DNA from: an uncultured Acidobacteriota bacterium
GTDB taxonomy: Bacteria > Acidobacteriota > Blastocatellia > RBC074
DNA: 64,000 nucleotides
NCBI GenBank assembly: GCA_963796275.1
Contig: CAWCKY010000006.1
Span: 704,001 to 768,000 of the forward strand
Reading direction: 5' to 3'
The notes under the pieces were generated by a model. The model worked only from the letters and a program-made list of their open reading frames with translations, ran no database searches and was not told the DNA's origin. Below are positions 21,562 to 34,018 of this stretch, one piece after another. Positions within the stretch are counted from its first letter, which is position 1; each line of letters begins with the position of its first letter. The position numbers and the translations under genes were made by a program.

Positions 21562-22380
21562 ATGATAAAAGATGTCTTTGCATCGATCTGGGCGGCGGCG
21601 CGCAAGATAATTACCAACTGGGGCGCATTATTAATTTCGTTTCTCCTCTATGCGGCCTTGCAAAGCGTGCTTTATCTGCTCATCACGACGCGCGAAGCGA
21701 CGCTGCTCCAAATATTATTGACTTTCGCTCTGCCGCTGGTCGCGCTCATCCTATTTTTCACACTTCAGGCGTTGGGGCTGAGTTATATACGAATCGGAGT
21801 CGGACCCGGGTACCTGCTGAAGCGCGCATTGAAGGACTGCTGGAAGCTGTTGTTAATGAGCGTTCCCCTGATATTGCTAGCTTGGCTGATCATTTACTCA
21901 ATCGGTACAACCGAAAACCGTCTATTGAATCAGATCTCCGACGCCGCCCAGGCATCGGGGAGGTGGAAGTTGACGGCACTCAACTGGGCTCGCATGTTCC
22001 TGCTCTATTTCGCGCTACCCCTGATCGCGATTCATCTATGGATATCGACACTGCACGAAGGTGTCGGCGCCGCCATCAAAAGCATCGGGCGCAGCGTCGC
22101 TCGCGCATTCTCGCCGCGATCAATGTTAATTTACCTGCTGGTCGTCGCAGTATTCGGTGCCATATCATATTTCCTGTTCTTCACCAAAACGCCGGTTGCC
22201 AATCAATGGGCGGAGTTGTGGTTGTTCGGCACGCGATTGGCCATGGCATTGGTATCCGTATTTCTGGGATGGCTGCTCACTCTGGGATCGCTGGCGGAGT
22301 TGACGGCCCATTGGGCAATGAGCGAATTGGAATCCGTGCCGCGAGCAGTAACCGGCGAGTCTTCAGCGTCGACCGAATAA
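21562..22380 (+). CDS. Multi-pass membrane protein of unknown function
   Basis: About six hydrophobic helices; stop overlaps next ATG (TAATG). Confidence 0.8.
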   Translation: MIKDVFASIWAAARKIITNWGALLISFLLYAALQSVLYLLITTREATLLQILLTFALPLVALILFFTLQALGLSYIRIGVGPGYLLKRALKDCWKLLLMSVPLILLAWLIIYSIGTTENRLLNQISDAAQASGRWKLTALNWARMFLLYFALPLIAIHLWISTLHEGVGAAIKSIGRSVARAFSPRSMLIYLLVVAVFGAISYFLFFTKTPVANQWAELWLFGTRLAMALVSVFLGWLLTLGSLAELTAHWAMSELESVPRAVTGESSASTE

Positions 22381-25121
22381 TGAAACGCGCGATAGGCATC
22401 AAGAAAATAAGTAATGAGCTCAAGGCGCCGGAGGCGCATCCCGCCAGGGGTATCTGCTGGGTTTATATCACAGGATATATCCTGGGCATTTTTCTTCTGT
22501 CATCGTGTGCGAAGCATGAACCTTCACCACCCACATTTTCACGCGATTCCGCGGGTGATAACGATGATTCGCTGCAAAAAGCCGCAACCGACGCACTCGG
22601 TGATCGGGAAGGCGCGGTAATCGTTATCGACCCGAACACCGGTCGATTGCATGCAGTCGTCAACCCACGCCTGGCTTTCGAACAAGCCTTTCCTCCCGGT
22701 TCGGCTATTAAGCCTTTTACGGCGCTCTCCGCCATGCGTGCCGGGTTAGTTGACCGCGGAACTGCCCACTTGTGCCGGACGCGCTATGAACGTGGAGGAT
22801 TTACGATCGTCTGCGCTCACCGGCGAAGCGCCTCGCCATTCGATCTGCCGCATGCCCTGGCATACTCCTGCAACGATTATTTCGCGCAGGTCGGCGAGCG
22901 CCTGAGCCAGGGCACGTTCAATGCGACGCTCAACCGTTTCGGCTTCGGCGCGCGCACCGGCGTGAGCGCCAACGAGGCGGCAGGCGTCCTGCCGCGCGGC
23001 GAATGGCATGTCGCCTCGGCGCTCGGCGAAAGCGAGAGCCTGTTAGTTACGCCGATCCAGTTGATGGCTGCTTACACCGCGCTCGTCAACGGCGGCCGCC
23101 TCTACCGCCCGCAGGTCAGAAACAGGCGGGATGTACTTCCATCGGCTCATCTGAACATCGTCCCGATACACCGCGCCGCACTGATCGAGGGAATGCGCGG
23201 CGCGGTGAAATACGGGACAGCTGGGACAGCCGGGCTCGGGAGATTGCCGTCATATGTTTTCGGCAAGACCGGGACCTCGACATCGAGCAACGGTTTCCGG
23301 ACACAGGGCTGGTTTGTCGGTTTTTTAGCTGATGGTGATTCAGCCGAAGCTCCGCGCGAAGATCAAATCAGGCTCGGCGTACTGGTTTTTCTCAAACGGG
23401 CGCACGGATCACAATGCGCAGAAGTGGCGGGAAAGATTTTCGATTACGGATTGCGGATTGACGGCTTGGGAGAAAAAGATGCGGGAAAGGGGAGTCGGGG
23501 CGATGAAATAAATTCGCCCAGTCGTGCGGTCGCTTCCAGTCCGCCATTCGCTATCCACCATCCTCAAACAGTAAGTGTTCGTTCGATCAGCGAGAAGCTC
23601 ACGCGCGAGCTGCCATTGGAGGAGTACCTCATTGGAGTGCTCGAAGCCGAATCCGGCGTGGAAGTCGAGCCCGAGGCTTTGAAAGCGCAGGCCGTCATCA
23701 GCCGGACTTTCGCGCTGAGGAATACCGGGCGACACGAGCGCGAAGGATACGATTTTTGCAGCACGACGCATTGTCAGCGCTTCGTCTACTCAAAAAAACA
23801 ATCGAACTCAGCGCGCCGTCGCGCCGTCGAAGAGACTATGGGTGAAGTCCTGCAGGATGGGATGGGCCAACTCGTCGACGCATACTTTCATGCTGCCTGC
23901 GGAGGTGTGACGGCGAATATCCGGGCATTGTGGGGCAGTCCCTCGCCTTCTTACCTGCGCGGCGTGCGCGATGATTTCTGCGCGACGATGCCGCATTATC
24001 GCTGGACACAGACTATTCCGGCCGCGCAGTTGGTTAAAGCGTTGAAGAGCGATGCGCGCACGGACATCGGACCGGAGATCAATGCGATTCTCGTCAGGAA
24101 ACGCGACGCGACGGGAAGGGCCGAGTTGCTCGCACTCGAGGGGGTGCGCCGCCGTCTTGTCAGTGGATGGGATTTCAAGATTATCGTCGGTCGCAGCCTG
24201 GGGTGGCAGATGATCAAGAGCTCTCGTTTTGATGTCTCGCGTTCAGGCGGAGACTTCGTCTTCCGCGGCAGCGGCTTCGGTCACGGTTTGGGTTTGTGCC
24301 AGGAAGGCGCCCACGCCATGGCGAGCCGCGGGATGAATTATCGGCAGATCCTCAAGCATTATTTTCCCGGCACACGGGGAATGCGCGACATGCGGAGCAG
24401 ACGAAGCATGCTGGACGGCAAAGACATGCGGGACACGATGAAATTGTTGGTGAGTTTCCCGGGTGGTCCCGTATCCGGGGATGCTGGAATAATCGACCGG
24501 AAATCGCAAAGGGGAAGTTGGAAACTGATAGCGAGCGAGAACTTTCGTGCGAGTTTCTCCCGTGAGGCAGATAGGCGATCGGTTGAAAATGTATTACGGC
24601 TGCTTGAAGCCGCGCGCACAGACCTGTTAAATCGGCTGCAAATGGCGTCGGTCCAATTGCAGGAATCGAAACCATTCGAGGTTGTGATTCACGAAACCAC
24701 GGCAGATTTCATCACCGCTACCGGTCAATCGGGACTGGCCGCCGGAGCGACGCGTGAAAGGCGAATCGAGTTGCAGCCCTTGACCATCCTAAGGAGGCGC
24801 GGCATTCTCGATTCGACCCTGCGTCATGAATTGGCGCACGCTGTCATTGAAGTATTGAGCGATGGCCGCGCGCCCCGCTGGTTGTCGGAAGGTTTGGCGA
24901 TCTACGTCGCGGGTGAAGGCGCAGCGATGTCGCGCATCGCCGAAAAACAGCGGCTAACGCGCGAGGAATTGGAACGGAAGCTATCGCGGCCCGCTCCGGC
25001 AAAGGTCATGCGCGAATTGTACGCGGCGGCATATCGCCAGGTCATAGCTATGATTCGGTCGGAGGGTGAAGATATCGTCTGGCGGCTCGTAGCTGAAGCG
25101 CGTAATTCGTCCCTGGTTTAA
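22380..25121 (+). CDS. Lipoprotein fusion: penicillin-binding transpeptidase + SpoIID/LytB + zincin-like peptidase domain
   Basis: LSSC lipobox; SAIK, SCN, KTGT; EALKAQAVISRT, CSTTHCQ, GFGHGLGLCQ.GA; HELAH...WLSEGLA; start placed at the coupled ATG 22380. Confidence 0.88.
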   Translation: MKRAIGIKKISNELKAPEAHPARGICWVYITGYILGIFLLSSCAKHEPSPPTFSRDSAGDNDDSLQKAATDALGDREGAVIVIDPNTGRLHAVVNPRLAFEQAFPPGSAIKPFTALSAMRAGLVDRGTAHLCRTRYERGGFTIVCAHRRSASPFDLPHALAYSCNDYFAQVGERLSQGTFNATLNRFGFGARTGVSANEAAGVLPRGEWHVASALGESESLLVTPIQLMAAYTALVNGGRLYRPQVRNRRDVLPSAHLNIVPIHRAALIEGMRGAVKYGTAGTAGLGRLPSYVFGKTGTSTSSNGFRTQGWFVGFLADGDSAEAPREDQIRLGVLVFLKRAHGSQCAEVAGKIFDYGLRIDGLGEKDAGKGSRGDEINSPSRAVASSPPFAIHHPQTVSVRSISEKLTRELPLEEYLIGVLEAESGVEVEPEALKAQAVISRTFALRNTGRHEREGYDFCSTTHCQRFVYSKKQSNSARRRAVEETMGEVLQDGMGQLVDAYFHAACGGVTANIRALWGSPSPSYLRGVRDDFCATMPHYRWTQTIPAAQLVKALKSDARTDIGPEINAILVRKRDATGRAELLALEGVRRRLVSGWDFKIIVGRSLGWQMIKSSRFDVSRSGGDFVFRGSGFGHGLGLCQEGAHAMASRGMNYRQILKHYFPGTRGMRDMRSRRSMLDGKDMRDTMKLLVSFPGGPVSGDAGIIDRKSQRGSWKLIASENFRASFSREADRRSVENVLRLLEAARTDLLNRLQMASVQLQESKPFEVVIHETTADFITATGQSGLAAGATRERRIELQPLTILRRRGILDSTLRHELAHAVIEVLSDGRAPRWLSEGLAIYVAGEGAAMSRIAEKQRLTREELERKLSRPAPAKVMRELYAAAYRQVIAMIRSEGEDIVWRLVAEARNSSLV

Positions 25122-25123
25122 GC

Positions 25124-25333
25124 ATGAATAATACGGATGACGAAGATGAGAATACGCAGACTACCATTAACACGACTGCATACCGCCCGCCCGAGGAGAT
25201 CGCCGCTGACGAGTTGCGCTGCGTGCAGTGCGGTGCTCCCGTGCCGAATATAGCGTGCGGACGGATCATGCCATGTCGATCGTGCGGGTTTCCCTATCCT
25301 TTGGGCGATTGCTCGGATTATGCGGAAAATTGA
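25124..25333 (+). CDS. Small Cys-rich zinc-ribbon-like protein
   Basis: CVQC...C...CRSC...C in 69 aa, 2 nt after previous stop. Confidence 0.6.
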   Translation: MNNTDDEDENTQTTINTTAYRPPEEIAADELRCVQCGAPVPNIACGRIMPCRSCGFPYPLGDCSDYAEN

Positions 25334-25443
25334 TCCTGCCTGAATTTGTTCTGAGAGATCAGCCAGCAGCGTTCAACAGCCATCAAAAAGCGACCTGATG
25401 CCTCCCGATAAGCTTGACTGAACAATCCTAGCTTTGAAATACA

Positions 25444-25473
25444 TTGACAATCCCACAGCAAGCCGTGTATAAA
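25444..25473 (+). promoter_or_regulatory. Putative sigma-70 promoter of leader + sulfate assimilation operon
   Basis: TTGACA-18 nt-TATAAA. Confidence 0.55.
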
Positions 25474-25509
25474 GACCCTCTTGTGTAGAAATGAGACGAT
25501 ACTTTCTTG

Positions 25510-25670
25510 AAAAGTACCGAACAAACATAAAAGAACAGATACTGAAGAACAGATACTGAAGACACGAACACATAATGACAAACTACACAAGATACGAATA
25601 CACGAGTAACGAATATAAGAATATAAGAAGTTACGAAAACAGAAGTAACGAATACAGAAGAAAGCAGGTA
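25510..25670. repeat. A-rich low-complexity tract of degenerate short repeats
   Basis: aagaacagatactg x2; recurrent acgaa/taacgaata units. Confidence 0.7.
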
Positions 25671-25674
25671 TAAA

Positions 25675-25821
25675 ATGTCACGATCAACGCGATCAGAAAG
25701 ACTAATGCTCTTACCTGATACAGGGCTTAGTAGACGGCCCGCAGAATTCTCTTTTAGTCTCACCTCGATTCTTTCCTGCCAAATCGCCTGCTCCTGTTGT
25801 TGCTGCTGTTGTTGTCGCTAG
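25675..25821 (+). CDS. Poly-cysteine leader peptide (putative attenuator)
   Basis: MSRSTRSERLMLLPDTGLSRRPAEFSFSLTSILSCQIACSCCCCCCCR*; 9 Cys, 7 consecutive with mixed TGT/TGC; AGGT upstream; alternative ATG 25705; precedes sulfite reductase. Confidence 0.85.
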   Translation: MSRSTRSERLMLLPDTGLSRRPAEFSFSLTSILSCQIACSCCCCCCCR

Positions 25822-25825
25822 CCTC

Positions 25826-25854
25826 TCGATTGCAGTTCATATTTCTGCAATCGA
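25826..25854 (+). promoter_or_regulatory. Hairpin directly after leader stop codon
   Basis: tcgattgcag-9 nt-ctgcaatcga, perfect 10-bp stem, no U-tract. Confidence 0.7.
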
Positions 25855-25979
25855 TCTCAATCCCAAAAAATTAACTAACTTAAGTTTGCCGGTTGAATTG
25901 TATTCGATCAGGTGAGCAGGTTCAGAATGCAGCCTTTAATTGGTTGCCGAATCGCGTATTCGCGTTTGCGGAGACGACT

Positions 25980-27566
25980 ATGAAAGAGAACAAGGTCGAA
26001 CGACTGAAAATTGAAAAAGACGGCCTCGACGTGTGGCAGGACATTGAGCGTTATGCGCAAACGGGATTCGACACGATCGATCCCGGCGACATGGATCGCT
26101 TCAAGTGGTATGGCCTTTATACCCAGCGACCCGTGGAAGACGGTCGCTTCATGATGCGCGTAAAGGTGCCCAATGGAATCATCAGCGCCGAGCAGCTCGC
26201 GACTATCGGCTGGCTTTCACAGGTTTATGGACATTCCACCGGAGATATCACGACGCGACAGGGAATTCAGATTCACCATCTGCGCATCGAAGATATTCCG
26301 CATGCCATCAACGAATTGAAGAAGGTCTCCCTAACCACGCAGGAGGCCTGCGGCGATGTCGTACGCAATGTCGTCGGGTGCCCGCTGGCGGGGATCGATG
26401 ACAATGAGATCATCGACGCCTCGCAACTGGTGGATCAGGTTGTAAAACAGTTCATCGACAACCGCGATTTTTCTAACCTGCCGCGCAAATTCAAAATTTC
26501 CATCACCGGCTGCACCCATCAATGCGCGCAACACGAGATCAACGACGTCGGCCTGGTCGCCGTCACCAATAATGATGGGGAGGTCGGGTTCGATCTCTGG
26601 GTCGGCGGCGGACTCGGCGCGAAGCCGTATCTGGCCAAACGTCTCGGGGTCTTCGTCTGGTACGACGAAGCGGTCGAGGTCATCACGCGCATCGTCGAAA
26701 TCTTCCGCGACCACGGTTACCGGGACGACCGGCGCAAGGCGCGTCTGAAGTTTCTGGTAGCCGATTGGGGCGTTGAAAAGTTCCGCGATGAGCTCGAATT
26801 ACGGTTGGGACGCAAGCTCGATGACGGTCCTCAAACAGATGTTCCTGAAATTCAAAAACGCGATCACACAGGCGTCTATGAACAGCGCCAGTATGGGCTG
26901 TATTACATCGGCGCGGCTGTGCTGCGCGGCCGGATTTCAGGCGAGCAGATGAGCGCGGTAGCGGGACTGGCTCGGCGTTATGCGAACGGGCGCATTAGAT
27001 TGACCAACGCACAGAATCTGATCGTGCTCGACGTGCCGGCGGAAAACATCGTTACGCTGAGCAACGAGCTGGCACTGCTCGGTCTCGATCCTTATGGCTC
27101 GCCATTTCGCCGCGGTACGGTCTCGTGCACGGGCCGCCAGTTCTGTAAGCTGGCCGTCGTCGAGACCAAAGAGCGCGCAGAGGAGATCATTCTTTACCTG
27201 GAGCAGACTAACCCGGATTTCAGCGATGACATCCGCATCAGCGTGACCGGCTGCGTCAATTCGTGTGCGCAGTATCAGATCGCCGATATCGGCCTGGTCG
27301 GGGTGAAAGGGCAGGAGAATGGGGCAGAAGTCGACTTTTTCCAGGTCCACCTCGGCGGGCATCTGGGGCAGGGAGCGGCGTTCGGGAGAAAAATCTCCAA
27401 ACGCGTCCGGGTCGAGGAGACCAAATTTTATATCGAGCGGGTTCTCCGCACTTACCGTTCGCAGCGGCGGGCGGGAGAACTGTTCTATCAGTTCATCGCG
27501 CGCCACGATGCGAGAGCATTGGAGATGATCGATGAGCTGGAGAGCGTAGAGATGGCCGCTGTATAA
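25980..27566 (+). CDS. sir: Ferredoxin-type sulfite reductase (siroheme, NirA/Sir family)
   Basis: KWYGLY, DITTRQ, CGDVVRN, LPRKFK, CTGRQFC, GCVNSC; GGAG RBS before ATG 25980; substrate inferred from cys context. Confidence 0.9.
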   Translation: MKENKVERLKIEKDGLDVWQDIERYAQTGFDTIDPGDMDRFKWYGLYTQRPVEDGRFMMRVKVPNGIISAEQLATIGWLSQVYGHSTGDITTRQGIQIHHLRIEDIPHAINELKKVSLTTQEACGDVVRNVVGCPLAGIDDNEIIDASQLVDQVVKQFIDNRDFSNLPRKFKISITGCTHQCAQHEINDVGLVAVTNNDGEVGFDLWVGGGLGAKPYLAKRLGVFVWYDEAVEVITRIVEIFRDHGYRDDRRKARLKFLVADWGVEKFRDELELRLGRKLDDGPQTDVPEIQKRDHTGVYEQRQYGLYYIGAAVLRGRISGEQMSAVAGLARRYANGRIRLTNAQNLIVLDVPAENIVTLSNELALLGLDPYGSPFRRGTVSCTGRQFCKLAVVETKERAEEIILYLEQTNPDFSDDIRISVTGCVNSCAQYQIADIGLVGVKGQENGAEVDFFQVHLGGHLGQGAAFGRKISKRVRVEETKFYIERVLRTYRSQRRAGELFYQFIARHDARALEMIDELESVEMAAV

Positions 27567-27692
27567 GTCTGAATTACAGCAGCCAATGTTCTTCGTGAGC
27601 GTTTTGTTTATGGCGATCATTGATGAGACATAGTTTGTAACCCTGCTTGTCACATCCGAAAACAAGCAGAAGAAGGAGGGAAAGATACTGAA

Positions 27693-28856
27693 ATGAGTTT
27701 AATTGATCCACACGGGGGGAAACTGATTGACCGGGAATTGCGCGGGGCAGAGCGCGAAGCGCTGCTGCGAGCATCGGTGAAAATGCCGAGTATTTCGGTC
27801 AACGCACGTGCTGAGGCCGACCTTGAGCTTATCGCATCCGGCGCGCTATCGCCGCTCGAAGGATTTATGGGCGAAGCGGATTACGTTTCGGTCAGAGACA
27901 ACCGGCATCTGGCGAACGGATTGGCCTGGACGATACCCGTCACCTTGTCGGCCACCGATGATGTGAGCGGAACCCTGCACACCGGCGATGATGTTGCTCT
28001 GCGCTCGCGCGATGGGCGATTGGTCGCCGTGCTGCATCTCGCCGAGATTTTCAAATATGACAAAGCGCTCGAAGCCCAGCAGGTGTACCGGACTACCGAA
28101 GAGAAGCATCCAGGCGTGAACGCGATTTATGGGCAGGGCGATTATCTGCTCGGAGGCCGCGTCAGTCTGATCGAAGCGCCGAACCGCCAGGAATTCGGGC
28201 CTTATCGTTTTTCGCCGCGGGAGTTGCGAGCGCTCTTCACCGAGCGGGGTTGGAAGAGCGTCGTCGCCTTTCAGACGCGCAACCCGGTGCATCGGGCGCA
28301 CGAATATATTCAGAAATGCGCGCTTGAGACCGTCGACGGGTTGCTGTTGCACCCCCTCGTGGGCGAGACGAAAGCCGATGATATCCCGGCGCCCGTTCGG
28401 ATGCGGGCATATGAAGTGATCATCGAGCATTACTACCCGGTCTCGCGTACTCAACTGGCCGTGCTGCCGGCTGCGATGCGCTATGCCGGGCCGCGTGAAG
28501 CCATCTTTCACGCGATCATCCGCCAGAACTATGGTTGCTCGCATTTCATCGTCGGGCGCGATCACGCGGGGGTGGGCAATTATTACGGAACATATGACGC
28601 GCAGCGAATCTTCGGCGATTTCGCACCGGGCGAGTTGAAAATCACCCCGATGTTTTTCGACAACACCTTCTTCTGCCGCAAATGCGATGGAATGGCTTCG
28701 GCCAAAACCTGCCCGCACGATCCGGACAATCACGTCAGTTTGAGCGGCACCAAAGTCCGCGAAATGCTGGCGCGCGGAGAAGTACCTCCGTCTGAATTCA
28801 CGAGGCCGGAAGTGGCATCGGTTTTGATCGACGCGCTGAAGGTCGTTGGAGTGTAG
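27693..28856 (+). CDS. sat: Sulfate adenylyltransferase
   Basis: PHGG, FQTRNPVHRAHEY, YAGPREA, GRDHAGVG, SGTKVR. Confidence 0.97.
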   Translation: MSLIDPHGGKLIDRELRGAEREALLRASVKMPSISVNARAEADLELIASGALSPLEGFMGEADYVSVRDNRHLANGLAWTIPVTLSATDDVSGTLHTGDDVALRSRDGRLVAVLHLAEIFKYDKALEAQQVYRTTEEKHPGVNAIYGQGDYLLGGRVSLIEAPNRQEFGPYRFSPRELRALFTERGWKSVVAFQTRNPVHRAHEYIQKCALETVDGLLLHPLVGETKADDIPAPVRMRAYEVIIEHYYPVSRTQLAVLPAAMRYAGPREAIFHAIIRQNYGCSHFIVGRDHAGVGNYYGTYDAQRIFGDFAPGELKITPMFFDNTFFCRKCDGMASAKTCPHDPDNHVSLSGTKVREMLARGEVPPSEFTRPEVASVLIDALKVVGV

Positions 28857-28948
28857 TCAGTTTACAGTTTACAGTTTTCAGTTCTTAGCTCTCAGATGCG
28901 AACTAAAAACTAAAAACTGCAAACTGAAAACTGCAAACTGAAAACCGA
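28857..28948. repeat. Inverted heptamer module (CAGTTTW)n/(AAACTGM)n
   Basis: cagtttacagtttacagttttcagttc ... aactaaaaactaaaaactgcaaactgaaaactgcaaactgaaaacc. Confidence 0.88.
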
Positions 28949-28952
28949 ATGG

Positions 28953-29024
28953 GGCGGTGTAGCCAAGTGGTAAGGCGAAGGTCTGCAAAACCTTTATTCG
29001 CCGGTTCGATTCCGGCCGCCGCCT
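28953..29024 (+). tRNA. tRNA-Cys(GCA), CCA not encoded
   Basis: Acceptor GGCGGTG/CGCCGCC, anticodon arm AAGGT-CTGCAAA-ACCTT, T-arm GCCGG-TTCGATT-CCGGC, U73 discriminator. Confidence 0.97.
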
Positions 29025-29051
29025 CTCATTAAGGAATTAAGGAAAGGATCA

Positions 29052-29618
29052 ATGTCAAAAGGTTTTACGCTTTGGTTTACCGGATTATCAGGGGCAGGGA
29101 AGACGACGCTGACAAATGCGATTTTGCCGCATCTGCTCGAGCGAGGCGTCAGGGCCGAAGTTCTTGACGGGGATGAGGTGCGCACCAACCTGAGCAAAGG
29201 GCTCGGGTTTTCCAAAGAAGATCGCGATACCAACATCCGGCGGATCGGTTACGTCGCCCGCTTGCTCTCCCGCAATGGCGTGGGGGTGATTGCGGCGGCA
29301 ATCTCGCCTTACCGCGAAATCCGCGACGAGGTGCGGCGTTCCATCCAGTCAGATGGCGCGGCTTTTGTCGAAATTTATGTCACTGCGTCGCTGGAGGCAT
29401 TGATAGAACGCGACGTGAAGGGGCTGTACAAGAAAGCTCTGGCGGGTGAGATAAAACAGTTCACCGGCGTAAGCGATCCTTACGAACAGCCGAACAATCC
29501 TGAGCTGGTCATCGAAAGCGATAAGGAGACAGTCGCCGAGAGCGCGACGAAGATCATCGTCACTCTCGAGAAGCTCGGGTTGCTGGCATCGAATCAGAAA
29601 TTGGGAGCGATGATATGA
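29052..29618 (+). CDS. cysC: Adenylyl-sulfate kinase
   Basis: [32 protein letters not shown]. Confidence 0.97.
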
Positions 29619-30427
29619 AACGGGGAAAGGTTTATCTGGTTGGCGCGGGGCCGGGCGATCCCGGTCTACTGACGCTCAAGGCGAGAGATCTTATCGCCGC
29701 AGCCGATTGCATCATCTACGACTATCTGGTCAACCCGAAGATTCTGGAACACGCGGGGCCGCGCGCGGAATTTATCTACGTCGGCAAACGCGGGGTGGAG
29801 AGCTCGTGGACGCAGGCTGAGATCAATCGCCTGCTGGTTGAAAAGGCCGGGGAGCATTCAGTAATCGTCCGGCTCAAAGGCGGCGATCCTTTCATTTTCG
29901 GGCGCGGCGGGGAGGAGGCGGAGATGCTGGTCGATTCGGGAGTGGAGTGGGAGGTCGTCCCGGGAGTGACTGCCGGATCATCGGTCGCCGCATACGCGGG
30001 GATACCCATCACGCATCGCGGGTTGAGCAGTTCGGTCGCTTTTGTGACGGGCCACGAAGACCCGGCGAAACCGCAATCGGCGATCCGGTGGGAGCATTTG
30101 GCTAACGGCGTCGATACGCTCGTCTTTTTTATGGGCGTGGCGCGCGCCCGGGAGATCGCGGAACGGCTCGTGGAACACGGCCGCAGTTCTGAAACGCCCG
30201 TCGCTGTAGTCCGCTGGGGAACTTACGATCACCAGGAGACTTACATAACCACGCTCGCAAACCTGGCGGACCTGACCGCCCGCGAGCAAGTCGCTTCGCC
30301 CGCGCTTATCGTGGTTGGAGATGTGGTTAAGCTTCATGAGAAGTTGCGGTGGTTTGAGGAACTGAAAGAGGTTCCGTTCGCTCATCGCAACTTCCCTAAT
30401 CCATTTTTGGAGGCGCTGGCGGGATAA
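29615..30427 (+). CDS. cobA: Uroporphyrinogen-III C-methyltransferase
   Basis: [36 protein letters not shown]. Confidence 0.96.
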
Positions 30428-30431
30428 GCGC

Positions 30432-30550
30432 ACACGGGGCACGGGGCACGGGGCACGGGGGCAAACGGGCGACAGGGAAGAATGACCGAGATCAAACGCG
30501 ATTTTTCGCCTGCCGTCTGAATATCTCCTGAGGCTTCTTCGCCCGGTCAC
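30432..30550. repeat. (CACGGGG)n-type repeat with degenerate inverted arm
   Basis: cacggggcacggggcacggggcacgggggc... then ttcgcctgccgtc and ttcgcccggtc. Confidence 0.65.
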
Positions 30551-30565
30551 AAAATCTGTAATCGA

Positions 30566-31216
30566 ATGCGCTACTACCCTATTTATCTCGACCTGAAAGA
30601 TCGCGCCGTCCTGGTAGTCGGTGGAGGGGCGATCGCTGAAAGCAAAGCGCAGCAACTTAACGAGGCGGGCGCGCGGGTTCGAGTTGTAAGTCCAACGCTT
30701 ACACCGCTGCTTTCCGGATGGGCGGCGCGCGGAGTGATCGAGCATGTTCCCGGCCGCTTCAAAGAGGATGATTTGAAAGATGTTTATCTTGTCATCAGTG
30801 CCGCGGATGATCAGGCGGTAAACGAAGAGGTGGCGCGACTCGCCGCGGAGCTTGGATTGTTGATAAACGTCGTCGATCAGCCCCCGTTGTGCAATTTCAT
30901 TACTCCGGCACTGGTGACGCGCGGCGATCTGCAGGTCAGCGTATCGACCGGAGGAGGCAGCCCATCGCTCGCGCAGCGCGTTAAGCGGGAAGTCGCCGCA
31001 TCGATCGGCGAAGAATACGGCGAGTTGCTCAAAATTGCCGCCGAGATGAGGGTTGATGCGAAACAACGAATACCGGATTTTGAGAGACGGCGCAAAGTTT
31101 TACACGAGTTTGTCGAATCAGAAGCGCTGGATCTGATCCGCGCGGGAAAATACGAAGAGGCTCGTGAGCTCGCGCGTTCGTTATTGGAAGCCAACGGCGT
31201 GCGGACGGTAAGGTAG
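30566..31216 (+). CDS. Precorrin-2 dehydrogenase/sirohydrochlorin ferrochelatase (CysG N-terminal/SirC-like)
   Basis: YYPIYLDL, VVGGG, NVVD...CNFITPA, STGGGSP. Confidence 0.92.
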   Translation: MRYYPIYLDLKDRAVLVVGGGAIAESKAQQLNEAGARVRVVSPTLTPLLSGWAARGVIEHVPGRFKEDDLKDVYLVISAADDQAVNEEVARLAAELGLLINVVDQPPLCNFITPALVTRGDLQVSVSTGGGSPSLAQRVKREVAASIGEEYGELLKIAAEMRVDAKQRIPDFERRRKVLHEFVESEALDLIRAGKYEEARELARSLLEANGVRTVR

Positions 31217-31286
31217 GTTGTCCAACGCGGAGAGCTTCCCTGAAGCAAATACATTAATCACGATATTTTCAGCGGAGGAGGAGAGA

Positions 31287-31991
31287 ATGATCGATAGCCT
31301 GGAAGAGCTGGCGGAAGTTGAAATAGACCAACTGGCGCAGCGTTTTGAATCGAGCAGCGTTGAAGAAATCCTCGAATGGGCGGTCGACCGATTCGCGCCG
31401 AGTCTGGTAATGACATCGAACTTCGGCGCCGAAGGCGTGGTCGTCATCGATAAGCTGGCGCGCGTCGCGCCGCACGTCCCCGTCATTTATCTTGAAACCG
31501 GGTTCCAGTTCGGCGAGACGGACCAGCTCAAAGAGAGAATTCGCGAACGCTACCGGATTAATATCGTCGAACAACGCGCGGAGTTGAGCGTCGTCGAACA
31601 AAACCGGCTCTATGGCAAGAAGCTTTACGAGCGCGATCCGGACCTGTGTTGTCGCATACGCAAGGTCGAACCGCTCAAGCAGGCGCTCAGTGGATACGAT
31701 GGCTGGATCGCGGCGCTGCGGCGGGATCAGTCGCCGTCGCGGGCGAACATCGGCGTGGTCGAATGGAACGCGCGCCATGGGCTGGTAAAAATCCATCCTC
31801 TTGCCGCCTGGACGCGCCGCGATGTATGGGATTACATAATGAGCAATAAACTGCCTTATCATCCGCTTTATGACGATGGTTATGCGAGCATCGGTTGCAA
31901 ACCCTGCACGCGCCGAGTGGTTGCCGGCGCGCATGAACGAAGCGGTCGGTGGGAGGGGCAGGGCAAGCTGGAGTGCGGTATTCATCTCTGA
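31287..31991 (+). CDS. cysH: APS/PAPS reductase, 4Fe-4S type
   Basis: CCRIRKVEPL, RRDQS..R, Y.SIGCKPCT, ECGIH; start at ATG 31287 after GGAGGAG. Confidence 0.95.
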   Translation: MIDSLEELAEVEIDQLAQRFESSSVEEILEWAVDRFAPSLVMTSNFGAEGVVVIDKLARVAPHVPVIYLETGFQFGETDQLKERIRERYRINIVEQRAELSVVEQNRLYGKKLYERDPDLCCRIRKVEPLKQALSGYDGWIAALRRDQSPSRANIGVVEWNARHGLVKIHPLAAWTRRDVWDYIMSNKLPYHPLYDDGYASIGCKPCTRRVVAGAHERSGRWEGQGKLECGIHL

Positions 31992-32005
31992 GATGCAAAA
32001 GTCTT

Positions 32006-32034
32006 TTGTCTTTTTATATTTGCCTGAATATAAT
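32006..32034 (+). promoter_or_regulatory. Putative sigma-70 promoter for sulfate transporter genes
   Basis: TTGTCT-17 nt-TATAAT. Confidence 0.55.
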
Positions 32035-32134
32035 GGTATGATACGGCTTCTCAGTTAAGCGGTCAGGAGAAGTCAAATTCGGAAAATATTCCACACTGAA
32101 GCAAGAACCAGGGAGCAGAAAATCTACAAAGGGC

Positions 32135-33178
32135 ATGGTGTCTCTCAATAACACTCATTGCCGAATGTATGCACAGAAAACACTGGCGCTAATCTTTGCG
32201 CTGGCCTTGATCTTTGTATTGTCGGCTTGCCGCCGCAAATCGGATGTAGCGAAGGAGGCCACGGTCACCGTTTACGGGTTTAGCGTGGTGAAAGAGCCGC
32301 TCGAGGGGGAAATCTTCCCGGCATACGAGAAGCTCTGGTTAGAAAAGACAGGACAGCAACTGACTTTCACTCCTTCCTATGCGGGATCCGAACTTGTGAC
32401 GAACCAGATCATCTCCGGGGTCGAAGCTGACGTGGCGATCCTCGCGATCGAGCGGAATGCCGATCGTCTGGTGGAAAGTCACGTGACGAATCACAACTGG
32501 CGCAGTCTGCCCTACGGAGGGATCGTCAATAAGACGCCGATGGTGATTCTCGTGCGGCAGGGCAATCCGAAACGCATCCGCGACTTCAGCGACCTCGCTA
32601 AGCCGGGTGTGAATTTGATACATTGCGATCCCATTTCATCAGGCGCCGGCCAATGGTCGCTGCTTGCCGTTTATGGATCGGAACTGATCAAGTCCGAGAA
32701 GCGGACCGGCAGGCGCGACAAGAAGAAGGCGTTCGAACTGCTGCAACAGGTCTGGAAAAATGTGATCACGCGGCCGCTCTCGGCGCGCGAAGCCCGGACG
32801 CAGTTTGAGAGGCGCGAAGGGGATGCTCTTATCACATACGAACTGGAGGCGTTGCAACTCCTCGAAAAGAACTTGGGAGATGTAATGATAGTTCCGCCTG
32901 CTACGATCTTCAGTGAGCATCCGGTGGTGATCATCGACGACCATATGCCGGCGGCCAAATTCGCCATTGTCGAATTGTTTGTACGTTACCTTTGGGAGAG
33001 ACCGGCGCAGGAGGCTTGGGTGAAGTCGAGATTCCGGTCGGTGACCGATGAGAGTCTGAATGCCAAATTTGCCAAGATTGAGATGCCATTTTATGTGAAA
33101 GACCTGGGCGGGTGGGAACACGCATATCCGGAGATCGTGGATGGCGTGTGGAAGCGGGATATCCAGAAAGAGAAGTAA
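32135..33178 (+). CDS. sbp: Sulfate ABC transporter substrate-binding lipoprotein
   Basis: LSAC lipobox; VRQGNPKRIRDFSDL, PISSGAG, GDALITYE.E. Confidence 0.88.
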   Translation: MVSLNNTHCRMYAQKTLALIFALALIFVLSACRRKSDVAKEATVTVYGFSVVKEPLEGEIFPAYEKLWLEKTGQQLTFTPSYAGSELVTNQIISGVEADVAILAIERNADRLVESHVTNHNWRSLPYGGIVNKTPMVILVRQGNPKRIRDFSDLAKPGVNLIHCDPISSGAGQWSLLAVYGSELIKSEKRTGRRDKKKAFELLQQVWKNVITRPLSAREARTQFERREGDALITYELEALQLLEKNLGDVMIVPPATIFSEHPVVIIDDHMPAAKFAIVELFVRYLWERPAQEAWVKSRFRSVTDESLNAKFAKIEMPFYVKDLGGWEHAYPEIVDGVWKRDIQKEK

Positions 33179-33187
33179 ATTGCGCTT

Positions 33188-34018
33188 ATGAGTAGTAAGG
33201 TAATGACTCCGCCGGGGGTTGGTGTCGACCTGGCCCGTCCTCTGGGAATCAGCTTCATTATTGCGGCGATGATGCCGCTCGTCATCTTGCCGCTCGCCTC
33301 GATCTTCATCTTCGGTTTCAGTAAGGGGCCGGCACACTTCTTCGAGGCGTTGATGGCGCCGGCGGCGCTCTCGTCGCTCCGGTTGAGCCTGCTGACGAGC
33401 AGCATCGCGACGGTCTGTAACGTGATCTTCGGGTTGATCGCGGCTTACGTCATGAGCAGGCATGATTTTAGAGGCAGTTCGGCATTGATGATCATCATCA
33501 GCCTGCCGACAGCGATACCGACGGCGGTTGCGGGGTTCGCTCTCCTTTTATTATGGGGTCGTAGTGGATTGCTCGGACAGTTCCTCGAACATACCGACTA
33601 CCATATTATGTTTACGACCTCGGCTATCATTCTGGCCAATATCTTCGTGACCTTCCCTCTGGCTTTCGGGGTGATCAAGCCGGTGCTCGATAATCTCGAT
33701 ACGACATACGAATATGCGGCGGAGACGATGGGCGCATCGCGCTGGCAGACGTTTCGTTTTGTGGTTCTGCCGAGCCTGCGCGGCGCAATCTATACGGGCG
33801 CGTTGCTGACCTTCGCGCGGTCGATCGGAGAGTTCGGATCGACGATTATGGTGAGCGGCAATCTGGCGATGAAAACGCAGACCGCGCCGCTTTATATCTA
33901 CTCGAAATTCAATGAAGGCGATGTCGAAAGCGCGAATGCGATCGCGGCAGTGCTCGCCATTATTTCGTTAGCCATATTTTCACTGATTATTTTTTCGCGT
34001 AAGAGACTGGAAAAATGA
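33188..34018 (+). CDS. cysT: Sulfate ABC transporter permease
   Basis: LPTAIPTAVAG, FVTFP, AAETMGAS, FARSIGEFGS..MVSGN. Confidence 0.85.
   Translation: MSSKVMTPPGVGVDLARPLGISFIIAAMMPLVILPLASIFIFGFSKGPAHFFEALMAPAALSSLRLSLLTSSIATVCNVIFGLIAAYVMSRHDFRGSSALMIIISLPTAIPTAVAGFALLLLWGRSGLLGQFLEHTDYHIMFTTSAIILANIFVTFPLAFGVIKPVLDNLDTTYEYAAETMGASRWQTFRFVVLPSLRGAIYTGALLTFARSIGEFGSTIMVSGNLAMKTQTAPLYIYSKFNEGDVESANAIAAVLAIISLAIFSLIIFSRKRLEK

What the first reader, a model, noticed from the sequence alone, without database searches (positions are those of the whole stretch)
25675..25980. Unannotated poly-Cys leader peptide: candidate cysteine-sensing attenuator of the sulfate assimilation operon
Seen: a 48-codon ORF (below the track cutoff) ending C-Q-I-A-C-S-CCCCCCC-R-stop with mixed TGT/TGC codons. 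It lies between a TTGACA/TATAAA promoter candidate and sulfite reductase. A perfect 10-bp hairpin starts 4 nt after the stop, with no U-tract. The leader's 3' half is pyrimidine-rich with C>G, and cctgctc (25787-93) is complementary to gagcagg (25914-20). Established: runs of cognate codons in leaders drive ribosome-stalling attenuation (trp, his), and Cys-rich leaders are known in Actinobacteria. Inference: Cys-tRNA shortage stalls the ribosome and permits expression, by Rho-dependent or RBS-occlusion control rather than an intrinsic terminator. I know of no description for a sir-sat-cysC-cysH operon in this lineage.
Basis: partly seen in the sequence, partly recalled or inferred. Interest (0 to 1): 0.92.

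Follow-up and report, generated by a model that had tools for sequence, protein, structure and literature searches.

The report
Terminator-less poly-cysteine leader before sulfite reductase
A tiny unannotated gene ending in seven cysteine codons sits in front of the sulfur-assimilation operon of this soil acidobacterium and of every close relative examined, so it is very probably a ribosome-based cysteine sensor, of a known kind but with an unusual read-out that lacks the usual transcription stop signal.

Summary
A 48-codon ORF at 25675-25821 ends SCCCCCCCR-stop, a perfect 10-bp hairpin follows, and sir starts 158 nt later. It is not chance: about 0.0005 runs of 7 or more Cys codons are expected in this 9.46-Mb genome. 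The same kind of ORF (39-56 codons, all Cys in the last 15 codons, stop 0-1 codon after the run in 16 of 17) precedes the gene in 17 of 17 assessable Blastocatellia loci. No run of 4 or more occurs in 68 loci from other phyla. A promoter (TTGACA-N17/18-TGTAxAAA) is conserved upstream in 14 of 17.

The read-out is unresolved. No intrinsic terminator was found (0 of 17). A second leader class in the same family has one in 24 of 29 loci. I favour tna/cruR-like shielding of a C-rich Rho loading site, because a C>G tract abuts the Cys run in all 17. RBS occlusion, as in mycobacteria, is the close rival.

The same genome also holds a poly-Cys ORF overlapping a cysM-like start, a tRNA-Cys gene inside this operon, and a Cys-rich ORF with terminators before another tRNA-Cys gene.

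This scan has found poly-Cys leaders on other DNA before, usually with terminators. Verdict: a new variant of a known kind.

The parts
25444..25473 (+). Candidate promoter: TTGACA (25444-25449), 18-nt spacer, TG-TATAAA (25466-25473)
   Evidence: Read. The same TTGACA-N17/18-(G)TGTAxAAA/TTT arrangement lies 97-231 nt before the small-ORF ATG in 14 of 17 leaders and aligns among the four closest. Function is inferred.
25531..25660 (+). A-rich, T-poor 5' UTR insert made of short tandem repeats. It is specific to this genome and lengthens the UTR to about 195 nt.
   Evidence: Tandem Repeats Finder rows 25531-25562, 25611-25629 and 25626-25660. Absent from L002, L111 and L112 in the alignment.
25660..25668 (+). 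Shine-Dalgarno-like GAAAGCAGG, 6 nt before the small-ORF ATG
   Evidence: Related purine motifs (GAAAGCAGG, GAAAGCTGG, AAGCGGG, AAAGAGG) precede the ATG in the leaders printed.
25675..25821 (+). Leader ORF, 48 codons plus stop; all 9 Cys lie in the last 15 codons
   Evidence: Its product and those of three relatives are absent from a 15-billion-protein collection. No NCBIfam match.
25735..25794 (+). C-rich, G-poor pyrimidine tract (C23 G9 T19 A9 in 60 nt) abutting the Cys run. It is the candidate Rho loading site and/or anti-SD; the anti-SD candidate TTTCCTGC is at 25772-25779.
   Evidence: Its C-G excess is in the top 1.2% of 60-nt windows of this genome. 16 of 17 leaders are in the top 2%. 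Profile. Consensus helix with the sir SD, including one compensatory pair.
25795..25815 (+). Seven consecutive Cys codons (5 TGT, 2 TGC): the proposed sensing codons
   Evidence: The runs of the 17 leaders hold 78 TGT and 27 TGC, against a TGT share of 0.32 in long ORFs of this genome.
25826..25854 (+). Perfect 10-bp hairpin with a 9-nt loop, 4 nt after the stop, no U tract
   Evidence: Present in the MFE and centroid folds. A hairpin at this place is kept in the four closest leaders, with one pair changed on both sides.
25822..25979 (+). 158-nt untranslated, structured spacer without an intrinsic terminator
   Evidence: Terminator scans found none. The fold of 25740-26000 has z = -2.6.
25968..25982 (+). 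sir ribosome-binding site (GGAG at 25970-25973) and ATG (25980)
   Evidence: It pairs with 25747-25764 in the MFE and centroid structures.
25980..27566 (+). Assimilatory sulfite reductase (NIR_SIR plus ferredoxin-like half domains)
   Evidence: Pfam.
27693..28856 (+). ATP sulfurylase (sat)
   Evidence: Pfam.
28953..29025 (+). tRNA-Cys(GCA) embedded between sat and cysC
   Evidence: ARAGORN. No promoter-like or + strand terminator-like site in 27500-29700. Also present in the same-genus locus L031, but not in 6 kb downstream of sir in 8 other genomes.
29052..34018 (+). Rest of the operon: APS kinase, uroporphyrinogen methylase, sirohaem synthase parts, PAPS reductase, sulfate-binding protein, permease
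   Evidence: Pfam.

Best explanation
The 48-codon ORF is a translated leader that reads the supply of charged tRNA-Cys.

1. Transcription starts at the conserved promoter near 25480.
2. A ribosome loads at the GAAAGCAGG-ATG site and translates the ORF.
3. With ample Cys-tRNA, the ribosome runs through the seven Cys codons and leaves at the stop two codons later.
4. The C-rich, G-poor tract of the ORF and the C-rich stretch after the hairpin are then bare. Rho loads there, tracks along the 158-nt untranslated spacer, and stops RNA polymerase before or early in sir.
5. With scarce Cys-tRNA, the lead ribosome stalls on the run at the very end of the ORF. It sits in the middle of that C-rich zone, with followers queued behind it. 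Rho cannot load or pass, so the polymerase reaches sir and the operon is made.

The layout is that of tnaC, speFL and cruR, where a stall at the end of the upstream ORF shields an adjacent or internal Rho site. The difference is that hungry codons cause the stall here, not a ligand in the exit tunnel.

What is shown: the ORF and all of its parts are conserved. What is inferred: translation, stalling, Rho action, and the direction of the response.

My odds: it is a Cys-sensing leader at all, about 0.85. Given that, the read-out is Rho shielding about 0.4, RBS occlusion about 0.35, and other routes about 0.25.
For: Sensor:
- 17 of 17 assessable loci have a 39-56-codon ORF with 5-9 Cys in its last 15 codons. 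The stop follows the run by 0-1 codon in 16 of 17.
- 14 of the 15 family genomes that hold this sir ortholog were assessable, and all 14 have the ORF.
- No run of 4 or more occurs in 68 loci from other phyla.
- TGT/TGC choice varies while Cys is kept, and the rarer codon TGT is enriched.
- Promoter and SD are conserved.

Read-out:
- 0 of 17 spacers hold a hairpin plus U tract. 24 of 29 class-2 leaders of the same family do, so these bacteria do use intrinsic terminators.
- The C>G excess in the 60 nt before the run is in the top 2% of genome windows in 16 of 17 leaders. A second, weaker C>G stretch lies 40-80 nt after the start of the run, and there is none further down the spacer.
- Spacers are long and variable, mostly 125-302 nt.
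- A Rho gene is present.

Precedents: passages of the review PMC12360218 describe tnaC, speFL and cruR as stalled ribosomes shielding adjacent or intragenic Rut sites.
Against: There are no RNA or ribosome data: no RNA run holds this stretch.

The C>G excess of this window's own tract is the modest end of the range (C23 G9; top 1.2%).

The tract is translated in both states, so Rho loading needs sparse ribosome traffic.

Pyrimidine richness would equally suit an anti-SD, or could simply follow from a Ser/Pro/Leu/Thr-rich peptide.

The window's own fold pairs the sir SD and ATG with ORF codons 24-30. The consensus fold of the four closest leaders has an SD:anti-SD helix with one compensatory pair. 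Both favour the rival.

Confidence: 0.35

Rival explanations
1. Same sensor, translational read-out as in mycobacterial Ms5788A. The pyrimidine tract next to the Cys run is an anti-SD that pairs with the sir ribosome-binding site when ribosomes have left. Stalled and queued ribosomes cover it and free the site. Rho-dependent polarity in untranslated sir may follow, as described for toiL.
For: - The fold of 25740-26000 (MFE -74.4 kcal/mol, z -2.6, 1 of 200 shuffles as good) pairs 25747-25764 with 25969-25992 (SD and ATG) in both MFE and centroid.
- RNAalifold on the four closest leaders gives a 7-pair helix between T(T/C)TCC-T-(G/T)C and G(C/A)GGAGA. One pair changes on both sides (GC in 2 leaders, UA in 2).
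- My alifold runs close the tract or Cys run onto the initiation region in 3 of 4 subgroups.
- The 50 nt before the run is the best partner of the SD in 7 of 17 leaders.
- Precedents: Canestrari et al., 10.1101/834739 (abstract and sections 6, 9, 10 read); toiL, PMC12121999 (abstract).
Against: - Equilibrium folding with the stall footprint forced single-stranded raises SD accessibility by 0.15 or more in only 1 of 17 leaders. This holds for a lead ribosome, a disome and a trisome alike. Means are 0.40 versus 0.41-0.43; this window goes 0.32 to 0.32, 0.40 and 0.49. An earlier 30-nt scan responded in 1 of 7.
- In 10 of 17 leaders, this window included, other parts of the leader pair better with the SD.
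- The anti-SD lies 16-23 nt (closest group) or about 40-45 nt (second group) before the run, so it is mostly outside the lead ribosome's footprint.
- The subgroup of L008, L039 and L038 shows no convincing anti-SD.
- Cognate tract:RBS duplexes are no better than non-cognate ones (mean difference -0.15 kcal/mol). That test is blunt, because SD and anti-SD are shared by all.
Confidence: 0.3
2. Same sensor, another read-out. The stalled ribosome and the post-stop hairpin could change mRNA decay, as with RNase G at speF. Alternatively a non-canonical, U-tract-less terminator or a pause site in the spacer could be controlled by alternative folding.
For: - A hairpin 4-12 nt after the stop recurs in the leaders (by eye; kept with a compensatory pair).
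- The spacer is more structured than shuffles.
- The speF orf34 abstract reports codon-pausing-dependent RNase G sensitivity (PMC6386406).
Against: No alternative pairing of the Cys run with the spacer stands out from dinucleotide shuffles: z lies between -2.1 and +1.4 in 16 of 17, and is -3.4 in one. Nothing here tests decay.
Confidence: 0.15
3. The ORF is kept for its product, a small Cys-rich peptide (metal or sulfur binding, or a modified-peptide precursor), and does not regulate the operon.
For: Peptide motifs outside the Cys run are conserved with third-position variation (N-x-W-A-T/S-S-G-S-S-P in one group, L-P-D in the other). This looks like selection on the peptide.
Against: - The only constant partners are cysteine-pathway genes of different types: two unrelated sulfite reductase forms, a cysM-like gene, and tRNA-Cys.
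- No maturase or transporter lies nearby.
- No family match.
- The rest of the peptide is otherwise variable.
- The ORF sits in the 5' leader of the operon behind its only recognisable promoter.
Confidence: 0.08
4. Chance ORF on a TGT/TGC microsatellite.
For: Tandem Repeats Finder lists 25789-25814 as a 12-nt repeat.
Against: Expectation is 0.0005 per genome. It is conserved in frame, with start, stop and promoter, across 5 genera of this sir ortholog plus a sixth genus.
Confidence: 0.01

Closest known systems
Mycobacterial polycysteine short-ORF attenuators (Ms5788A, Rv2334A; the 'Cys ribulon'; Canestrari et al., bioRxiv 10.1101/834739 / Mol Microbiol 2020)
   Same: An unannotated short ORF with a C-terminal run of Cys codons is the first cistron of cysteine-pathway operons. 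Several such loci occur in one genome. There is no intrinsic terminator at the studied locus.
   Different: - The mycobacterial ORFs are leaderless, and the Cys codons themselves pair with the SD.
- Here a promoter lies 97-231 nt upstream and an SD precedes the ORF.
- The ORF is long (39-56 codons).
- The regulated start is mostly 125-302 nt away.
- SD pairing by the run or its flank is not consistently predicted.
- No sequence relationship is evident, so an independent origin in another phylum is likely.
Upstream-ORF-dependent Rho attenuators: tnaC-tnaAB and speFL-speF of E. coli/Salmonella, cruR-bfrG of Bordetella pertussis (review PMC12360218, passages read)
   Same: The ribosome is held at the very 3' end of the upstream ORF. 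A C-rich site lies adjacent to or inside the ORF. A long untranslated spacer precedes the first gene. There is no intrinsic terminator.
   Different: Those ribosomes are arrested by a nascent peptide plus a ligand (tryptophan, ornithine, copper). Here the proposed arrest is by hungry Cys codons. Rho dependence is not shown here.
Classical leader-peptide transcription attenuators (trp, his, leu, thr; uORFC-8-2 before cysS in Rhodobacterales, PMC8632094, passages read)
   Same: A run of codons for the end-product amino acid sits in a short leader ORF before the biosynthetic operon.
   Different: The defining terminator/antiterminator pair is missing (0 of 17). The same bacterial family does have that classical form before its other sulfite reductase type (24 of 29).
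Poly-Cys leaders found earlier by this scan (e1-4384111, e1-3949476, e1-5140316 in Acidobacteria; e1-4003073 in Synergistaceae without terminator)
   Same: A poly-Cys mini-ORF before sulfite reductase or cys genes, conserved among relatives.
   Different: The acidobacterial cases noted before carry an intrinsic terminator, like my class 2. This class is longer, ends at the Cys run, and has none.

Membership tests
Classical ribosome-mediated transcription attenuator (trp/his type) | Short leader ORF with a run of codons for the operon's end product | tested here: met
   Seven Cys codons in the window. There are 5-9 Cys in the last 15 codons in 17 of 17 leaders. Translation itself was not tested.
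Classical ribosome-mediated transcription attenuator (trp/his type) | Intrinsic terminator (GC-rich hairpin plus U tract) between the leader ORF and the first gene | tested here: not met
   0 of 17 spacers pass, against 24 of 29 class-2 leaders under the same scan. None found on the + strand of the window.
Classical ribosome-mediated transcription attenuator (trp/his type) | Antiterminator that competes with the terminator and is freed by the stalled ribosome | tested here: not met
   There is no terminator to compete with. In class 2, a segment of the ORF (GGAACCGG or similar, 7 nt or longer) copies the terminator's 3' arm in 14 of 29.
Mycobacterial polycysteine short-ORF translational attenuators | C-terminal polycysteine tract in an unannotated short ORF heading a cysteine-pathway operon | tested here: met
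Mycobacterial polycysteine short-ORF translational attenuators | Leaderless: transcription starts at the ORF's start codon | tested here: not met
   By sequence only. A conserved promoter lies 97-231 nt upstream in 14 of 17, and an SD-like motif precedes the ATG. No transcription start data.
Mycobacterial polycysteine short-ORF translational attenuators | Cys codons or their flank pair with the SD of the next gene, and the stalled ribosome breaks the pairing | tested here: inconclusive
   For. Against or null.
Upstream-ORF-dependent Rho attenuators (tnaC, speFL, cruR) | Ribosome arrest at the 3' end of the upstream ORF | not testable with these tools
   The sensing codons end 0-1 codon before the stop in 16 of 17. 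The arrest itself is inferred.
Upstream-ORF-dependent Rho attenuators (tnaC, speFL, cruR) | C-rich, G-poor Rho loading site adjacent to or inside the ORF | tested here: met
   Composition only. The C-G excess of the 60 nt before the run is in the top 2% of genome windows in 16 of 17. Profile.
Upstream-ORF-dependent Rho attenuators (tnaC, speFL, cruR) | Termination depends on Rho | not testable with these tools
   A Rho gene is present in the genome. There is no functional test.

The most novel reading that the evidence does not exclude
One bacterial family has wired a single sensor, a run of Cys codons read by the ribosome, to at least four different read-outs:

1. a terminator-less, probably Rho-shielding leader (this locus);
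2. a classical terminator/antiterminator leader;
3. an ORF that overlaps the start of a cysM-like gene in another frame;
4. a leader with terminators in front of a tRNA-Cys gene.

In this genus the sensed molecule's own gene, tRNA-Cys, also lies inside the regulated operon. The cell would then adjust the amount of tRNA-Cys, and with it the set point of the sensor, through the sensor itself.
Probability: 0.3. Interest if true: 0.75.

Novelty: new variant of a known kind. Interest (0 to 1): 0.55.

Why it matters
Regulation in Acidobacteria, among the most abundant soil bacteria, is almost unknown. A 2010 survey already noted that almost none of their predicted attenuators had an assigned function (PMC2965389, passage read).

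This locus shows that cysteine and sulfate assimilation in a whole Blastocatellia family is probably governed by ribosome-read Cys codons rather than by a CysB-type regulator or a riboswitch.

It also offers a natural comparison. The same sensor is coupled to an intrinsic terminator in one operon and to a terminator-less read-out in another, sometimes within one genome. This could show how amino-acid-sensing leaders change their output.

If the Rho model holds, it would be an example of hungry-codon stalling (rather than ligand-dependent arrest) shielding a Rho site. My searches found no such description for cysteine.

The embedded and separately attenuated tRNA-Cys genes raise the testable idea of feedback on the sensed tRNA.

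Tried and rejected
- **Rfam.** The permissive scan of 25100-26100 gave only two chance-level rows. A riboswitch or T-box is rejected.
- **RNA evidence.** No RNA holder was listed for 25400-26400. Transcription start and 3' ends remain unknown.
- **Whole-leader alignments.** Alignments of 7 and 9 leaders were too divergent for a consensus fold (-2.6 and -3.9 kcal/mol).
- **30-nt footprint scan.** SD accessibility responded in 1 of 7 leaders.
- **Lead, disome and trisome footprints.** 1 of 17 responded in each case.
- **Initiation region against the whole leader.** The best RNAduplex partner lay inside the ORF in 9 of 17 and in the spacer in 8. The wide interior loops that the method allows make this noisy.
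- **Cognate versus non-cognate tract:RBS duplexes.** Null result. The test is uninformative if SD and anti-SD are shared by all.
- **Cys run against the spacer.** No consistent partner beyond shuffles.
- **L190.** I set its sir start with a crude rule, and it is probably wrong: 142 nt, against about 260 nt from the match. Its rows should be disregarded.
- **L038.** The conserved N-terminal motif is in a different frame from the Cys run and there is no in-frame ATG. This is either an assembly error or a decayed copy. I still count it as carrying the run.
- **L040 (G056).** It has only 285 nt upstream and was not assessable.
- **Other families of the class.** No ORF with 4 or more Cys in 12 residues lies within 600 nt upstream of sir in 8 loci.
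- **Frameshifting at the cysM-like locus.** I considered +1 frameshifting at hungry Cys codons, because the cysM frame is +1 of the small ORF. I found no slippery re-pairing by inspection and did not pursue it.
- **Literature searches** that returned no description of such a leader in Acidobacteria:
  - 'polycysteine / attenuat / leader';
  - 'cysteine-rich / leader peptide / uORF / sulfate assimilation / ribosome stalling';
  - 'Acidobacteria / leader peptide / attenuation / cysteine / sulfite reductase';
  - 'Rho-dependent / uORF / ribosome stalling / leader peptide / rut'.
- **Supplements.** Supplementary tables of Canestrari et al. (lists of short ORFs in 41 species) could not be seen and may hold further comparisons.
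Full report
**What is there.**
The ORF at 25675-25821 (+) encodes MSRSTRSERLMLLPDTGLSRRPAEFSFSLTSILSCQIACSCCCCCCCR. The seven consecutive Cys codons (25795-25815) are TGT TGT TGC TGC TGT TGT TGT, followed by CGC and TAG. Four bases later comes a perfect 10-bp hairpin (25826-25835 with 25845-25854, 9-nt loop) with no U tract after it. sir starts at 25980, behind GGAG at 25970-25973.

Downstream, all on the + strand, lie these genes (Pfam):
- sulfite reductase;
- ATP sulfurylase;
- APS kinase;
- a uroporphyrinogen methylase;
- sirohaem synthase parts;
- PAPS reductase;
- a sulfate-binding protein;
- a permease.

A permissive Rfam scan of 25100-26100 found nothing credible. From base composition, 0.0005 runs of 7 or more Cys codons are expected in this 9.46-Mb genome. 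Three runs of 6 or more exist.

**Lineage.**
Record titles of the closest sir loci name Acidobacteriota, class Blastocatellia. One close contig is labelled Heliobacteriaceae, which I take to be a mislabel. The window is G000:C6:704001-768000.

**Conservation (class 1).**
Within the family, 15 of 87 genomes (5 of 17 genera) hold this sir ortholog at E <= 1e-100. Fourteen were assessable. All fourteen have, before sir, an ORF of 39-56 codons whose last 15 codons hold 5-9 Cys. The spacer between ORF and sir is 125-302 nt, apart from one doubtful value for L190 (see the caveat below). The stop follows the run by 0-1 codon in all but L038, where CCCCCMCCRCC precedes the stop.

Three further loci bring the count to 17 of 17: two metagenome contigs (L111, L112) and a locus in a sixth genus where a 429-aa NIR_SIR paralogue plus sat follows (L017). 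One of the 17 (L038) has the N-terminal motif out of frame.

Controls:
- None of 68 loci from Actinomycetota, Planctomycetota, Chloroflexota and other phyla has a run of 4 or more. Three have a run of exactly three.
- Among 78 metagenome loci (54 with at least 300 nt upstream), only the three Blastocatellia-like ones carry the ORF.
- Eight loci from other families of the class have none.

Other features:
- The run uses 78 TGT and 27 TGC, while long ORFs of this genome use TGT for 32% of Cys. Cys is kept while the codon drifts, and the wobble-read codon is favoured.
- Outside the run, one group shares N-x-W-A-T/S-S-G-S-S-P and the other L-P-D, both with third-position variation.
- A purine-rich SD-like motif precedes the ATG.
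- TTGACA-N17/18-(G)TGTAxAAA/TTT lies 97-231 nt upstream in 14 of 17. In this window the UTR is lengthened by tandem repeats.
- The peptide and three relatives are absent from a 15-billion-protein collection and match no NCBIfam model.

**Other poly-Cys ORFs in the family.**

*Class 2.* A 714-aa NIR_SIR paralogue, present in 54 of 87 family genomes but not in G000, is preceded in 29 of 29 assessable loci by an ORF of the form ...M-C(3-6)-...-N-R-x-P-...-stop. A GC-rich hairpin plus U tract follows in 24 of 29. In 14 of 29, a 7-8-nt piece of the ORF (GGAACCGG or similar) copies the terminator's 3' arm, which makes it a classical antiterminator. Genome G021 has both classes. This is the form this scan noted before in Acidobacteria.

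*Class 3.* The second long Cys run of G000 lies at the start of a PALP (cysM-like) gene, followed by a JAB protease and a ThiS-ThiF-rhodanese fusion. A roughly 20-codon ORF, M...C-Y-A...C(3-6)-stop, contains the cysM ATG and ends about 35 nt into cysM in another frame. It recurs in 22 of 28 relatives examined. In those relatives the CysM residues over the run alternate between V and A exactly as TGT/TGC drift would dictate.

*tRNA-Cys genes.* A tRNA-Cys(GCA) gene lies inside the operon at 28953-29025. It was first noted by another reader, e1-6372738. No promoter-like or + strand terminator-like site lies around it. It is shared by the same-genus locus L031 but absent from 6 kb downstream of sir in 8 other genomes. 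A second of the three tRNA-Cys genes is preceded by MMDRCCCCPCSCLC...RE-stop and two hairpin-plus-U-tract terminators. Similar ORFs ending ...DLRE precede a tRNA-Cys in 2 further loci of the 28 examined.

**Read-out of class 1.**

*No intrinsic terminator.* The same scan finds 0 of 17 in class 1 and 24 of 29 in class 2.

*For RBS occlusion.*
- The window's leader folds better than shuffles (z -2.6). Its SD and ATG pair with ORF codons 24-30 in both MFE and centroid.
- RNAalifold on the four closest leaders predicts an SD:anti-SD helix with one compensatory pair.
- My alifold runs close the tract onto the initiation region in 3 of 4 subgroups.
- The tract is the SD's best partner in 7 of 17.

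*Against or null.*
- Forcing stall footprints open changes SD accessibility by 0.15 or more in only 1 of 17, and in 1 of 7 in an earlier scan.
- Cognate and non-cognate duplexes do not differ.
- The Cys run has no consistent partner.
- The candidate anti-SD lies mostly outside the lead ribosome's footprint.

*For Rho.*
- A C>G excess covers the 60-70 nt before the run in all 17. It is in the top 2% of genome windows in 16 of 17, and this window is at 1.2%.
- A weaker excess lies after the hairpin, and there is none further down the spacer.
- The sensing codons sit at the extreme 3' end of an unusually long leader ORF.
- The spacer is long.
- Rho is encoded.
- The review passages on tnaC, speFL and cruR describe exactly this geometry, with a stalled ribosome at the ORF end shielding an adjacent or intragenic Rut site.

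I therefore rank Rho shielding slightly above RBS occlusion. The two can act together, as at toiL (abstract) and speF (abstract). None of this is tested by experiment.

**Comparison and novelty.**
Cys-codon leaders are known from two sources I could read:
- mycobacteria, where they are leaderless and the Cys codons pair with the SD (10.1101/834739: abstract and sections 6, 9, 10);
- cysS in Rhodobacterales, where there are two Cys codons and an intrinsic terminator (PMC8632094, passages).

My four literature searches found no description in Acidobacteria. This scan has met poly-Cys leaders repeatedly on other DNA.

The present class differs in these ways:
- it has a leadered transcript;
- the ORF is long;
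- the run is terminal;
- there is no terminator;
- a C-rich tract abuts the run;
- in this genus, a tRNA-Cys gene lies in the operon.

It fails the defining terminator test of the classical family and the leaderless test of the mycobacterial family. It works like both at the sensor end.

**Caveats.**
- Relatives are not independent, so the k-of-n counts overstate the support.
- All structure evidence is thermodynamic prediction with very little covariation.
- The start codon of sir in L190 is doubtful.

Noticed in passing
G000:C6:391737-392669 (-) and about 60 nt upstream; locus L225:2579-3514:-: A roughly 20-codon ORF (MNRVASSICYASTKCCCCCC-stop) contains the ATG of a cysM-like PALP gene and ends about 35 nt inside it in another frame. 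The operon continues with a JAB protease and a ThiS-ThiF-rhodanese fusion. The overlap is kept in 22 of 28 relatives, with V/A changes in CysM that match TGT/TGC drift. A stalled ribosome would sit on the cysM start region, so the sign and mechanism of control are unexplained.
   Followed up: partly
window 28953-29025 (+): A tRNA-Cys(GCA) gene lies between sat and cysC, inside the operon headed by the poly-Cys leader. It is flanked by 7-nt tandem repeats (28858-28883, 28901-28949), with no promoter-like or + strand terminator-like site nearby. It is shared with the same-genus locus L031 but not with 8 other genomes of the family.
   Followed up: partly
G000:C6:1418749-1419101 (+); locus L265: A second tRNA-Cys gene is preceded by a Cys-rich ORF (MMDRCCCCPCSCLCLGLQRIEPDSRE-stop) and two hairpin-plus-U-tract terminators. 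It is a candidate leader-peptide attenuator of a tRNA gene. Similar ORFs ending ...DLRE lie 83-84 nt before a tRNA-Cys in L277 and L278, so 3 of the 28 loci examined have one.
   Followed up: partly
L195-L224 (family genomes), e.g. L195:1325-1500: Class-2 leaders precede a 714-aa NIR_SIR paralogue: M-C(3-6)...N-R-x-P...stop, then a GCGCCCCGGTTCC...GGAGCCGGGGCGC hairpin with a U tract. The ORF segment GGAACCGG copies the terminator's 3' arm. The Cys-run ORF is present in 29 of 29 assessable loci, with a terminator in 24 of 29. This is the classical form noted earlier by the scan.
   Followed up: yes
window 25531-25660 and G000:C6:1418600-1418740: A-rich, T-poor stretches built of short tandem repeats lie just upstream of both Cys-rich leader ORFs of this genome. 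In the sir leader the stretch is an insertion relative to the closest relatives.
   Followed up: no
G013:C22:27121-27195 (+): In another genus, a tRNA-Cys gene lies on the same strand about 3.9 kb downstream of the start of the leader-controlled NIR_SIR-sat locus (L017). The tRNA-operon link may recur there.
   Followed up: no
window 21882-25121 (+): The gene upstream of the leader encodes a 1079-aa protein that joins a penicillin-binding transpeptidase domain to a SpoIID domain.
   Followed up: no
L037 (contig CAYWDW010000662.1): A contig whose sir (65% identity) and leader are near-identical to those of Blastocatellia MAGs is labelled 'uncultured Heliobacteriaceae'. This is probably a binning or labelling error.
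   Followed up: no
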